A stretch of 64,000 nt of DNA, from the NCBI RefSeq assembly GCF_009914755.1, contig NC_060927.1; one strand, written 5' to 3'. The notes beneath the pieces are model-generated. The model saw only the letters and a list, made by a program, of their open reading frames with translations, searched no databases and was not told the DNA's origin. The position numbers and the translations under genes were made by a program. This stretch comes from the human T2T-CHM13v2.0 reference genome, Homo sapiens. Positions 9,831 through 54,306 of this stretch are shown here, piece after piece (position 1 is the first letter of the stretch; each line of letters opens with the position of its first letter).

Positions 9831-9874
9831 CACCTAAACCCAGAAAATCAATCACCTAAACCCAGAAAATAAAT
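9831..9874. repeat. 22-bp tandem duplication
   Basis: CACCTAAACCCAGAAAATCAAT followed by CACCTAAACCCAGAAAATAAAT. Confidence 0.9.
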
Positions 9875-30900: not shown

Positions 30901-31929
30901 TTAGTGCACCCTTTTAGTGTGCCTGCATGTGGGGTGTGGCATGTGTGTTAAAATTAAGAGGTAAAATTGGTGATGGGGTGGAAATCAGTACACCAATAAA
31001 AAATATTTAATTAAATTCATTAAGTGTTTATAAGGTAAAACCTACGTGTCCTATACAAGGGCCCATGCTACATTGCTTCATACTGGAGACAGTGAAATAT
31101 AGTGATATTTATGATAGATTTTTAAAGATCTTACAATTTAAAGACATAAAAATTGATCTTTTTCTTTTAGAAAGAATATAAATTGAGAGCTAAAATTTGT
31201 ATTCAATAAGCAAAACAAATACTTTGTTTATGCGTTAGCTCTATTAGTACGTGAAAGAAAGAAAACTGAAGAAGAAAAAGGACAGAAGGGTTCAGAGAGA
31301 ATGAAAAATGGAAGGAAAACATTGAGGAAAGATACACATGGAGAGAGGTTAACACACAAGACAAATAAAAACATGTAAGAAGGGAGGATTACTATATGAG
31401 AAAATCAGAGGAAGAGAAAAGAGAAATGGAAAAGACAAAAGAGGCAAAAAAAAAAATAAAGGAGAAAAACTCAGAATGATGGGGAAGACAGAGGTAAAAG
31501 AAAAGAGATTCCAGAATTTTTTTAAGTACCATAAAAAAGCAGAAGAAAAGTGAGACTGAAATACAGACACTGGCTGAGGTAGAAGGAATACAGATAAGTA
31601 TCACAGATTCTGAAGTATTAGGTAGAGATAAACTGTTCGTGTCCTATTCTGCTGCTCTCTTCTCTGGCAAATTTAGACAACATGATTAATTCTCTTTGAC
31701 GTCCTGAGTGAGCATTGGTCATAGCCCAGAAGATCCCCTCTGAGTATATAGCCACATTAGCCAAGTAAAAAGAAACATTTTCTCAGACTTGCCAAGGTAT
31801 GACTGGTGAGATTACACTCTAGAGGATATTCCACCAAAAAAAAAAAATCTAGATTTTGGCTGAGAGATTTCCAAGTGATAATTCAAGCAAGGTTTTCAGA
31901 AGACTTCCTGAATATGCAAATCTCCATAT

Positions 31930-32148
31930 CATATTTCTCAACTGTGGCACTGTTGACATTTCAAGCCGGATAATTCCTTCTGTGCCAGGGTTGTCTGTGT
32001 ATTGTAGGATTTTAGCAGAATCCCTGACCTCTCTGTACTAGATGCCAGTAGCACCTGCCTGTAGCTACAATCAAAACCAGACATTGCCAACTGTCCCCTG
32101 GGGAGCCTGGGTGGAGTGCAAAATCACGCTGTGGAGCACCACTGCTCT
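31930..32148. mobile_element. MER20 hAT MITE
   Basis: TTTCTCAACTGTGGCACTGTTGACATTT...CTAGATGCCAGTAGCACC...CCAGACATTGCCAACTGTCCCCTGGGG...ACCACTGCTCTA. Confidence 0.88.
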
Positions 32149-32245
32149 AATGCATTAACATTAATGAGTTTGCACAATTAGATAGCAAAGAGTAGGAAAT
32201 AGGTATTTCCTGGATAAGGTGTGATGCTGCACAGAAATTAACCAT

Positions 32246-32282
32246 GTTGAGTCCAACACCTTAACCACTCGGCCATCACAGC
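32246..32282 (-). pseudogene. 5'-half tRNA-Ser(CGA) tailless retropseudogene
   Basis: Minus strand GCTGTGATGGCCGAGTGGTTAAGGTGTTGGACTCAAC corresponds to tRNA-Ser(CGA) from nt 1 to the anticodon loop; perfect 16-bp TSD CACAGAAATTAACCAT at 32230-32245 and 32283-32298. Confidence 0.88.
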
Positions 32283-33284
32283 CACAGAAATTAACCATAT
32301 CTAAATTACAGTTAGTCCCAATTTCCTCTCACCCACCTTCACAAACCCATAATGTTAGCTTAGTTCTATACATCCCTTCTAGGAGACCTGGGACCATTGG
32401 TCTAACCAGAGTTTGGAGAGAGTCCCCGGAGCACCAACTATAATCAGGACAGTCGGCTGGGTGCTTCTTATCAACTCTGGATTGAGGGCGGTGGCCACAG
32501 CATCAAATGGGCCAACACAAATACTGAATGACAAATGCTTTAGAGTCAGATTAACTATAGTACAGGAGGGGGGCATGATTTTCTGGCACAGAATCCTCCA
32601 CTAGAGTGTCATTTTCCTCTCTAGGCTTTCTATTTGAAAACCCTCAGAGAACATTAAAAACTTCAGTTTTAGCAGGTGCCTGGCTTTGCTGAGTTCAATT
32701 AAGTTGCACAGTTTCTAAATTACCCCCCAGATATTAGCCATAGGCTATTGAGACACAAGCCAGGCAGGATGCAGGCCAGGGTCTAAGGATTCTAATCAAC
32801 TCCAAAGAGGAATTTCAACTCCTAAAACGACCCTGGAATTTTGCCATGAGCAGGTCTTTGAGTTCGGCTACTTTATTTAGATAGCACTATGATGAGGCAT
32901 AGCCATCAGGACATTGCTATGCTATCTTTCATATGTAATTTTCTTGCTTATGATGCCAGCTTTCAGTCAGCCTTTACCCCATGGTTTTTTGTTTGTTTGT
33001 TTGTTTTTATTTTTATTGTTTTGGTATACAGATCTCTTTTCAATACAACTTTTTTATTATGCAGAAAATAAACTTAACTACTCAGATAACTCTGTTTATA
33101 TTTGTTAGCAGACAAAAAAAGTGAGAAATACACGTTAGATTAGAAAAATAGAAACTATACCCAAAAGATAGAAAATGAAAAGTGAAAATCTGTCTTTCCT
33201 TCCTTTTCCTCAAGAGAAATCATTCTCTGCAGTTTCAAGTGACTCTGGGCATGGGAAATCACCATAACTGAATGCACACATATA

Positions 33285-40382: not shown

Positions 40383-40448
40383 GTCATGAGAAGAGAATAA
40401 GTCATGAGAAAAGAATAAGTCATGAGAAAAGAATAAGTCATAAGAAAA
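40383..40448. repeat. 18-bp minisatellite, about 3.7 copies
   Basis: GTCATGAGAA(A/G)AGAATAA x3 plus a partial copy. Confidence 0.92.
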
Positions 40449-53672: not shown

Positions 53673-54306
53673 TGTATCAGAGTTCTCCAGAGAATCACAA
53701 CAAATAGGATGATAAGATGGATAACTGATAGATGATAGATAGATAGATAGATAGATACATAGATACATAGATACACAGATAGACAGATGATAGATAGATA
53801 GATAGACAGATGATAGATAGATAGATGTAGATTTTACGGAACTGGCTCATGTGATTGTGGGAGTTGACAACTCCCAAATCCATAGGCAGGACAACAGGCT
53901 GTAAACTCAGGCGAGAATAATGTTGTAGTCTCGAGTTTGAAATCTACAGAGCAGCTGGCAGGCTAGCAACTCACACAGGAGCTGATGTTACAGTCATAAA
54001 TTTAAAATCTTTAGGGCAGACCAGTAAGTTGGAGACACAGGCAGCCTTTCTATGTTGTAGCCATGAGTCAGACTTCCTTCTTGGAAGTAAAGTCCTCCTT
54101 GGAAACCAAGTTTTTTCTTAACACTTTTGATTCATTGAATGATGTTCACCCACATTATCAAAGGTAATCTCTTCAGTTAAAATCACTGATTACATATGTT
54201 AATCACATTTACAAAATACCTTCACAGCAACATCTAAACTAGTGTTTGACCAAAACACTGAGCAACATAGCCTAGCCAAGTTGACACATAAAATTTAACC
54301 ATCACA
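53673..54306 (-). mobile_element. ERVL 3' LTR (MLT2C/D-like)
   Basis: TGTATCAGAGTTCTCCAGAGAA...GGAACTGGCTCATGTGATTGTGG...GCCAAGTTGACACATAAAATTTAACCATCACA. Confidence 0.88.
53727..53832. repeat. Compound (GATA)n tetranucleotide repeat within MLT2
   Basis: GATA/CATA/GACA units. Confidence 0.95.

What the first reader, a model, noticed from the sequence alone, without database searches (positions are those of the whole stretch)
32230..32298. Tailless 5' tRNA-half retrocopy (tRNA-Ser CGA) with perfect 16-bp TSDs
Seen: a 37-nt insert between two identical CACAGAAATTAACCAT copies. Its minus strand, GCTGTGATGGCCGAGTGGTTAAGGTGTTGGACTCAAC, starts exactly at the mature tRNA 5' end, stops in the anticodon loop and has no poly-A. 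Knowledge: this matches the 5' half of human tRNA-Ser(CGA) (GCTGTGATGGCCGAGTGGTTAAGG...TTGGACTCGA), with CGA to CAA explicable by CpG decay. Tailless tRNA retropseudogenes made by L1 machinery are a described mammalian class. Inference: this is a germline cDNA record of either an anticodon-cleaved 5' tRNA half or internal priming at the anticodon loop. Undiverged TSDs suggest it is fairly recent. It keeps an A box but no B box, and could mis-map small-RNA reads.
Basis: partly seen in the sequence, partly recalled or inferred. Interest (0 to 1): 0.7.

Follow-up and report, generated by a model that had tools for sequence, protein, structure and literature searches.

The report
Catalogued tailless tRNA-Ser retrocopy
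A 37-base copy of the front half of a serine tRNA sits between two identical 16-base target-site duplications; it is an ordinary member of a known class of LINE-1-made "tailless" retrocopies and is already listed in a published catalogue.

Summary
Window 32230-32245 and 32283-32298 are identical 16-mers. The 37 nt between them, read on the minus strand, match positions 1-34 of a human tRNA-Ser(CGA) gene exactly, followed by 3 bases of which 1 matches. The copy starts at tRNA +1, ends in the anticodon loop and has no A-tail.

The repeat pair is not chance. It is the only non-tandem exact 16-mer pair of its kind in the window, against a mean of 0.01 in 100 shuffles.

Noll et al. 2015 (PMC5322556), Table S2, lists hg19 chr3:104974905-104974943 as a tailless retropseudogene of chr6.trna137-SerCGA. 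It is the only SerCGA row. A second chr3 landmark gives the same assembly offset to within about 2 kb.

Twenty-four Gln- and Ile-derived copies from the same genome all end at tRNA positions 34-48. This copy differs from them in three ways: no 5' leader, a non-A-rich target site, and only 2 nt of primer-template homology.

Whether the template was an intact tRNA primed internally or a pre-cleaved 5' half cannot be decided from this locus. Its age could not be measured because no primate outgroups were available. Low interest.

The parts
32246..32282 (-). 37-nt insert. Positions 1-34 are tRNA-Ser(CGA) (acceptor 5' strand, D arm, anticodon stem 5' strand, loop up to C34), followed by 3 bases (AAC) of which one matches tRNA 35-37.
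   Evidence: 34 of 34 identical to gene L002, 35 of 37 overall. The genes were called by ARAGORN.
32283..32298 (-). 5' target-site duplication in tRNA orientation. It abuts tRNA +1 directly, with no leader.
   Evidence: leader 0. L002's upstream bases are absent.
32230..32245 (-). 3' target-site duplication in tRNA orientation. On the + strand its 3' end (...CCAT) is the inferred TPRT primer from which the cDNA (+ strand 32246-32282) was extended. In tRNA sense its first two bases, AT, equal tRNA positions 38-39.
   Evidence: 2 nt of contiguous identity. The catalogue entry is 39 nt long, that is 37 plus these 2. The priming role is inferred from the TPRT model.
32298..32299 (+). Inferred first-strand nick site in the pre-insertion sequence (+ strand ...AACCAT/ATCT...). 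In tRNA sense this reads AT/ATGGTTAA, a poor match to the class consensus TT/WAAAAWW.
   Evidence: Sequence; consensus from Noll et al.. The comparison copies start mostly with A-rich words and have TT upstream in 8 of 18. Inference.
32265..32275 (-). tRNA positions 8-18, the internal Pol III A-box region, retained. The B box lies in the T arm, which is absent.
   Evidence: Alignment. The insert stops 45 nt before the end of the 82-nt gene. The positions of the boxes are recalled knowledge, not a tool result.

Best explanation
This is a dead-on-arrival retrocopy of the 5' part of cytoplasmic tRNA-Ser(CGA), made by LINE-1 target-primed reverse transcription. It belongs to the class called tailless retropseudogenes.

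Inferred sequence of events:
1. The + strand was nicked after ...AACCAT.
2. That 3' end primed reverse transcription inside the A-rich anticodon loop of a 5'-processed tRNA-Ser(CGA). The template was most parsimoniously the chr6 isodecoder with U25. At most two primer bases paired, with A38-U39.
3. The enzyme ran to the RNA's 5' end at +1.
4. A second nick 16 nt away, followed by fill-in, produced the 16-bp duplication.

The copy keeps the A-box region but lacks the T arm and B box, the variable arm and the acceptor 3' strand. It is therefore neither a tRNA gene nor a likely Pol III unit.

Shown: the anatomy, the parent family, the catalogue entry, and the class-typical end point. Inferred: L1 as the enzyme, the order of nicks, and internal priming.

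My confidence of 0.9 applies to [quoted passage not shown]. Within that, I put internal priming on an intact tRNA at about 0.6 and a pre-cleaved 5' half at about 0.3.
For: **Anatomy.** Searches show a perfect 16-bp TSD, 34 of 34 identity from tRNA +1, an end in the anticodon loop and no A-tail.

**Not chance.**

**Class definition.** Read in Noll et al. 2015, Introduction, Methods and Results. The class is 5'-complete, 3'-truncated in loops, tailless, TSD-flanked and dependent on L1. The insertion site is complementary to 2-18 nt of the RNA.

**Catalogue.** Table S2 has the row chr3 104974905-104974943 chr6.trna137-SerCGA, the only SerCGA row.
- The offset to T2T is 2,999,339.
- The next chr3 landmark I could match is a 43-nt GlnCTG copy, hg19 110359089 = T2T 113360419. 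Its offset is 3,001,330.
- The listed 39 nt equals the 37-nt insert plus the AT microhomology.

**Same-genome comparison.**
- 24 of 24 truncated Gln/Ile copies end at tRNA positions 34-48.
- 18 of 24 have TSDs of 11-18 nt.
- 13 of those 18 overlap the tRNA end by 1-9 nt.

**Related copies.** All nine Ser-derived rows in Table S2 are 34-39 nt long. A Ser-AGA copy on chr3 (L072) ends at A37/A38 in the equivalent loop.
Against: - The target site (AT/ATGGTTAA in tRNA sense) is not A-rich and differs from both TT/AAAA and TT/WAAAAWW.
- Primer-template homology is only 2 nt, which chance gives with p = 0.06. The base just before it (position 37) mismatches.
- No L1 sequence or other direct mark of the enzyme is present.
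- Noll et al. reached internal priming "by default", from negative searches on 5S and U2 RNA, not on tRNA.
- No outgroup genome was available, so I did not see the empty site.
- The flanks are unique sequence apart from an old repeat ending about 120 nt away. No paralogous empty site exists either.
Confidence: 0.9

Rival explanations
1. Same class and enzyme, but the template was an already cleaved, mature 5' tRNA half, cut in the anticodon loop (for example at the C34-G35 bond). It was copied from its 3' end after end-to-end template engagement rather than by internal priming.
For: - The copy starts exactly at +1 with no leader. All 18 comparison copies with clear TSDs carry 1-19 nt between the TSD and +1. 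For the Gln set this spacer resembles the upstream bases of the chr1 source gene. The template here was therefore RNase P-processed, as the substrates of loop cleavage are.
- The certain tRNA part ends at C34, followed by 3 poorly matching bases that could be filler.
- There is almost no primer homology and the target is not A-rich, so pairing to the A-rich loop is not evident.
- A 2025 preprint (10.1101/2025.02.02.635956; passages read) proposes tRNA halves as the source of the 1-37-nt tRNA parts in tRNA/L1 chimeras.
Against: - Noll et al. found no support for truncated-RNA intermediates, though only for 5S and U2 RNA.
- Leaderless copies also fit internal priming on a mature tRNA.
- One locus cannot tell the two apart.
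- Recalled knowledge: loop cleavage leaves a 2',3'-cyclic phosphate end. How that affects use of the RNA as a template is unknown to me.
Confidence: 0.3
2. A full-length tRNA-Ser retrocopy or gene was inserted and its 3' part was later lost by deletion.
For: None specific. The aligner placed the 3' TSD against the T arm of the tRNA.
Against: - That similarity is at chance level: p = 0.38 against 5,000 random 36-mers of the window.
- The 3' TSD is a perfect copy of the 5' TSD and lies no more than 3 nt from the last certain tRNA base. A deletion would have had to end precisely at the TSD.
- The same end point recurs across the class.
Confidence: 0.02
3. A tRNA-derived cDNA or DNA fragment was captured during repair of a double-strand break without L1 endonuclease.
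For: The nick site (CCAT/AT on the + strand) is far from the L1 endonuclease consensus quoted.
Against: A clean 16-bp duplication indicates staggered nicks, within the 8-30 nt range typical of TPRT. Recalled knowledge: endonuclease-independent events usually lack TSDs and carry deletions. In the comparison set, 2 of 18 clear copies also have AT immediately upstream of the TSD.
Confidence: 0.04

Closest known systems
Tailless retropseudogenes (Schmitz et al. 2004, known to me only through its description in Noll et al.; Noll et al. 2015, PMC5322556)
   Same: It is 5'-complete, 3'-truncated in a loop, tailless and TSD-flanked, with the modal length for tRNA-derived members (34-40 nt). This locus is itself a row of Table S2.
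   Different: The target site is not A-rich, only 2 nt of site/RNA complementarity are present, and there is no 5' leader. Leaders are present in 18 of 18 clear Gln/Ile comparison copies.
tRNA/LINE-1 chimeric insertions with half-length tRNA parts (bioRxiv 10.1101/2025.02.02.635956)
   Same: The same tRNA segment (about 1-37) is involved, and the same debate over tRNA halves as templates applies.
   Different: Those insertions carry an L1 segment inside the same TSDs, usually antisense to the tRNA. Here the TSDs enclose only the 37 nt.
Functional tRNA-Ser(CGA) genes (L002, L003, L004, L025 in this genome)
   Same: The first 34 nt are identical to L002.
   Different: 45 of the 82 nt are missing: the anticodon stem 3' strand, variable arm, T arm and acceptor 3' strand. 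ARAGORN and Rfam do not call the fragment.
tRNA-derived SINEs and A-tailed tRNA retropseudogenes
   Same: An RNA-derived, L1-dependent insertion with TSDs.
   Different: It has no A-tail and no B box. It is single-copy: whole-genome searches found no second copy.

Membership tests
Tailless retropseudogene (criteria of Noll et al. 2015, Methods) | 5' end (almost) complete relative to the source RNA (for tRNAs, at most 20 nt between the TSD and the element start) | tested here: met
   The insert starts at tRNA +1, 0 nt from the TSD.
Tailless retropseudogene (criteria of Noll et al. 2015, Methods) | 3' truncation of at least 10 nt, length at least 30 nt, identity above 69% | tested here: met
   The insert is 37 nt of an 82-nt gene, with 35 of 37 identical to L002.
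Tailless retropseudogene (criteria of Noll et al. 2015, Methods) | Flanking TSDs of 8-35 nt with at least 70% identity | tested here: met
   16 nt, 16 of 16 identical. Shuffle control.
Tailless retropseudogene (criteria of Noll et al. 2015, Methods) | No oligo(A) tail at the 3' end | tested here: met
   The insert ends ...CTCAAC and is followed directly by the TSD.
Tailless retropseudogene (criteria of Noll et al. 2015, Methods) | Truncation maps to a loop or single-stranded region of the source RNA | tested here: met
   The end point lies between positions 34 and 39. ARAGORN places the anticodon at 34-36.
Tailless retropseudogene (criteria of Noll et al. 2015, Methods) | Insertion site complementary to the RNA at the end point (2-18 nt) | tested here: inconclusive
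   2 nt (AT = positions 38-39), preceded by a mismatch. Chance gives this with p = 0.06.
Tailless retropseudogene (criteria of Noll et al. 2015, Methods) | Target-site consensus TT/WAAAAWW (a tendency, not a filter) | tested here: not met
   The site is AT/ATGGTTAA in tRNA sense.
Tailless retropseudogene (criteria of Noll et al. 2015, Methods) | Made by LINE-1 ORF2p | not testable with these tools
   Inferred from the TSD and from the class-level phylogenetic link with L1 activity.
Functional tRNA gene | Complete cloverleaf with T arm (B box) and acceptor stem | tested here: not met
   ARAGORN finds 0 genes in the window. There is no Rfam tRNA match in 31900-32650 at E up to 10. The alignment shows the 3' 45 nt are absent.
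tRNA/L1 chimera (twin priming) | An L1 segment joined to the tRNA part inside one pair of TSDs | tested here: not met
   The TSDs enclose 37 nt only.
cDNA of a cleaved 5' tRNA half | The template RNA ended in the anticodon loop before reverse transcription | not testable with these tools
   A mature 5' end and a loop end point fit this reading, but they fit internal priming equally well.

The most novel reading that the evidence does not exclude
Unlike the leader-bearing Gln and Ile copies, which come from unprocessed nuclear precursors, this leaderless copy has almost no primer homology and a non-A-rich target. It could be a germline cDNA fossil of a mature tRNA-Ser cut in the anticodon loop (last certain base C34) and picked up end-on by L1 reverse transcriptase. 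If leaderless copies as a group end at known cleavage bonds, the roughly 660 catalogued tRNA copies would record germline tRNA-half production over tens of millions of years. A weaker side idea: the mismatch at position 37, the first templated base, may record misreading of a modified A37. That this position is modified in Ser tRNAs is recalled knowledge, not tested here.
Probability: 0.3. Interest if true: 0.35.

Novelty: already known. Interest (0 to 1): 0.1.

Why it matters
The biological consequence is small. This is one neutral 37-nt fossil in a gene desert about 110 kb upstream of ALCAM, of a kind described in 2004 and catalogued in 2015.

There is a practical point. Its first 34 nt are identical to a real tRNA-Ser(CGA) gene. 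Small-RNA reads of 34 nt or less from that gene's 5' end will therefore map to this chr3 site as well.

There is also a conceptual point. Leaderless members such as this one are the subset on which the open question could be tested class-wide: internal priming versus a pre-cleaved half.

Tried and rejected
1. **TSD resembles the tRNA T arm or B box.** The aligner suggested this. The Smith-Waterman score was 12 against a null mean of 10.7, p = 0.38. Rejected as chance.

2. **Flank complementary to the insert.** This is inverted repeat I4: 32211-32222 against 32256-32267, 11 of 12. It could have meant the tRNA was tethered to the target.
   - It is rare against random window 60-mers (p = 0.0033).
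   - The test was post hoc, and none of 24 comparison copies reaches 11 of 12 (maximum 10).
   - I treat it as chance.

3. **Paralogous empty site.** I searched the genome with window 31750-32780. Only an old interspersed repeat at about 31933-32107 has other copies (760 candidates, 40 scored, 71-80% identity). Nothing spans the insertion site.

4. **More Ser-derived copies.**
   - BLAST with the insert plus TSDs found only this locus and 3 Ser genes (4 of 4 candidates).
   - BLAST with the full L002 gene gave 21 matches. ARAGORN ran on 17 of them and called a tRNA gene at each: 13 Ser, 3 Leu-TAA and 1 called Phe(aaa). Three more are the Ser(CGA) genes, and the last is this locus.
   - Pattern searches with Ser-TGA and Ser-AGA 5' parts, up to 3 mismatches, found one extra copy, L072.
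   - The 3-mismatch limit misses older copies.

5. **Comparison set.**
   - I fetched 12 of 29 Gln hits and 18 of 35 Ile hits, choosing those outside the known tRNA gene clusters.
   - Two further chr17 Ile hits with the same matched string as L057 were not fetched.
   - Before counting I dropped 5 full-length copies (L046, L053, L069, L070, L071) and 1 duplicate (L060).

6. **Literature gap.** Schmitz et al. 2004 (PMC524414) is not held. What I say of it comes from Noll et al.

8. **Dating by outgroups** was not possible; no primate genome is reachable with these tools. The locus is absent from the catalogue's table of clear presence/absence patterns (the coordinate occurs once, in Table S2 only).

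Full report
**What is there**

On the + strand, window 32230-32245 and 32283-32298 are the same 16-mer. They enclose 37 nt at 32246-32282. The bases outside the two copies differ on both sides, so the duplication is exactly 16 bp.

I searched the whole genome of the window (T2T-CHM13, 3.1 Gb) with that 37-mer, allowing up to 3 mismatches. It found four places and none for the reversed control. They are this locus and three loci that ARAGORN calls tRNA-Ser(cga) genes.

Against the best gene, L002 at chr6:27.54 Mb, positions 1-34 are identical. Position 35 is A for G and position 37 is C for A. The other two genes differ additionally at position 25, where they have C and the insert has T.

The insert begins at the first base of the gene call and contains none of L002's upstream bases. 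It is followed directly by the second 16-mer, with no A run. ARAGORN and Rfam do not call the fragment.

**Is it more than chance?**

Yes. Microsatellites and three short tandem duplications aside, this is the only exact 16-mer direct pair spaced 16-200 nt in the 64 kb. In 100 dinucleotide-preserving shuffles the mean was 0.01. An exact 34-mer match to a tRNA gene is expected about 2e-11 times by chance.

**What it is**

The anatomy is that of a tailless retropseudogene. I read the Introduction, Methods and Results of Noll et al. 2015 (PMC5322556). The class consists of:
- retrocopies of small RNAs that are 5'-complete;
- truncation at the 3' end within loops or single-stranded regions;
- no oligo(A) tail;
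- flanking TSDs of 8-35 nt;
- restriction to lineages with active "relaxed" L1.

The element meets every filter of their screen; see the membership table.

More than that, their Table S2 contains the row "chr3 104974905 104974943 chr6.trna137-SerCGA". It is the only SerCGA entry. I could not run a lift-over, so I checked the assembly offset with a second landmark.
- A 43-nt Gln-derived copy found at T2T chr3:113360419 corresponds to the Table S2 row chr3 110359089-110359131, also 43 nt. Its offset is 3,001,330.
- The present element's offset is 2,999,339.
- Six other comparison copies have exactly the lengths listed for rows on the same chromosome at nearby coordinates.
- The listed length of 39 nt equals the 37-nt insert plus the first two TSD bases, AT. 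These match tRNA positions 38-39.

The finding is therefore an already catalogued element.

**Related sequences**

Table S2 holds about 660 tRNA-derived rows (667 occurrences of "trna" in the file). The part I read is dominated by 34-45-nt entries from Gly, Gln, Glu, His and Ile tRNAs. All nine Ser-derived rows are 34-39 nt long.

To see the junctions myself, I pattern-searched this genome with the 5' parts of a Gln and an Ile gene. I then fetched 30 hits lying outside the tRNA gene clusters. After dropping 5 full-length copies and 1 duplicate, 24 truncated copies remained.

| Feature | Count |
|---|---|
| End at tRNA positions 34-48 | 24 of 24 |
| TSDs of 11-18 nt | 18 of 24 |
| Perfect TSDs, among those 18 | 7 |
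| TSD overlaps the tRNA end by 1-9 nt (site/RNA homology) | 13 of 18 |
| TSD abuts the tRNA end | 2 of 18 |
| 1-4 nt of filler | 3 of 18 |
| TT immediately upstream of the TSD | 8 of 18 |

A Ser-AGA-derived copy at chr3:103.49 Mb (L072) ends at A37/A38 and has an A-rich TSD.

**How this copy differs from the comparison set**

1. It has no 5' leader. All 18 clear comparison copies carry 1-19 nt between the TSD and +1. For the Gln set this spacer resembles the bases upstream of the chr1 source gene. Those copies came from unprocessed precursors; this one came from a 5'-processed tRNA.
2. The target site is AT/ATGGTTAA in tRNA sense. It is not A-rich and differs from the class consensus TT/WAAAAWW.
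3. Site/RNA homology is only 2 nt (p = 0.06), and the base before it mismatches.

**Mechanism**

Most likely this was target-primed reverse transcription by L1 ORF2p. The + strand was nicked after ...AACCAT. cDNA synthesis started in the anticodon loop and ran to the RNA's 5' end. A second nick 16 nt away gave the TSD. The anatomy is shown; the enzyme and the order of events are inferred from the class.

The exact end point is ambiguous between positions 34 and 39. Only 1 of the last 3 insert bases matches the tRNA, which chance gives with p = 0.58. Counting the AT, 3 of 5 bases match, with p = 0.10. A 34-nt copy plus a 3-nt filler fits equally well.

Two template forms remain open.
- **Internal priming on an intact tRNA.** Noll et al. 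favour this "by default", from negative evidence on 5S and U2 RNA.
- **A pre-cleaved 5' half.** A 2025 preprint proposes this for tRNA/L1 chimeras (passages read).

The missing leader, the minimal homology and the non-A-rich site lean slightly toward the half model for this copy. One locus cannot decide. I put internal priming at about 0.6 and the half at about 0.3.

**Parent gene**

T25 matches only the chr6 gene L002, and the catalogue also names a chr6 gene. However, position 25-26 is a CpG in the other genes. A later C-to-T change from those parents cannot be excluded.

**Age**

No outgroup genome was available. The locus is not in the catalogue's table of clear presence/absence patterns.

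Perfect TSDs are weak evidence of youth. In the catalogue 1,183 of 2,454 elements have them, while 258 of the 406 datable elements are shared by all anthropoids.

With recalled one-lineage divergences, the probability of no change at 64 non-CpG sites is 0.34 for orangutan-split age, 0.14 for macaque-split and 0.03 for marmoset-split. This gives a loose preference for a catarrhine-or-younger insertion. The element is present in both hg19 and T2T-CHM13.

**Leads that went nowhere**

- The TSD's apparent likeness to the T arm is at chance level (p = 0.38).
- An 11-of-12 complementarity between the 3' flank and the insert (32211-32222 against 32256-32267) is rare against random sequence (p = 0.0033). 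It was found post hoc and is absent from all 24 comparison copies.
- The flanks have no paralogous empty site.

**Verdict**

Interest is low. The only residual value is as one leaderless case for a class-wide test of tRNA half against internal priming, and as a known multi-mapping site for tRNA-Ser 5' reads.

Noticed in passing
window 31933-32107: An old interspersed repeat. A genome search gave 760 candidate copies, of which 40 were scored at 71-80% identity over about 120-180 nt. No tool named the family. It ends about 120 nt before the insertion site.
   Followed up: partly
window 32211-32222 and 32256-32267: An inverted repeat with 11 of 12 bases complementary, between the flank and the D-arm part of the insert. 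It is rare by chance (p = 0.0033) but not seen in 24 other tailless copies, so it is probably coincidence.
   Followed up: yes
window 32277-32287 (+ strand): At the 5' junction, the last 5 bases of the TSD (CTGTG in tRNA sense) repeat tRNA positions 2-6, giving CTGTG-G-CTGTG. Microhomology-guided joining would have collapsed the two copies, so it was not used.
   Followed up: no
window 9831-9870, 40394-40441, 53777-53821; also about 23897 and about 35613: Short tandem duplications with periods of 22, 18 and 23 nt, plus (CA)n and (TA)n microsatellites. They turned up in the 16-mer pair scan.
   Followed up: no
L055, L056 (and its duplicate L060), L057: 3 of 14 Ile(AAT)-type tailless copies have G rather than A at anticodon position 34. 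This could be the reverse-transcription signature of inosine-34 in a mature tRNA (recalled knowledge), a later A-to-G change, or descent from an Ile-GAT gene.
   Followed up: no
L072 = G000:C3:103491262-103491794 (copy at about 103491512-103491548, minus strand): A Ser-AGA-type tailless copy ending at A37/A38. Its TSD is about 14 nt with 2 mismatches, and about 18 nt separate the 5' TSD from tRNA +1. To my eye the context looks L1-derived, but I did not test that. It is not among the nine Ser rows of Table S2 seen.
   Followed up: partly
L042-L052 versus L073/L074: Gln-derived tailless copies share the diagnostic body variant of two chr1 Gln-CTG genes. They also share a 5-8-nt leader ending in TGA-like bases, which resembles those genes' upstream sequence. 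This suggests one precursor transcript gave many copies.
   Followed up: partly
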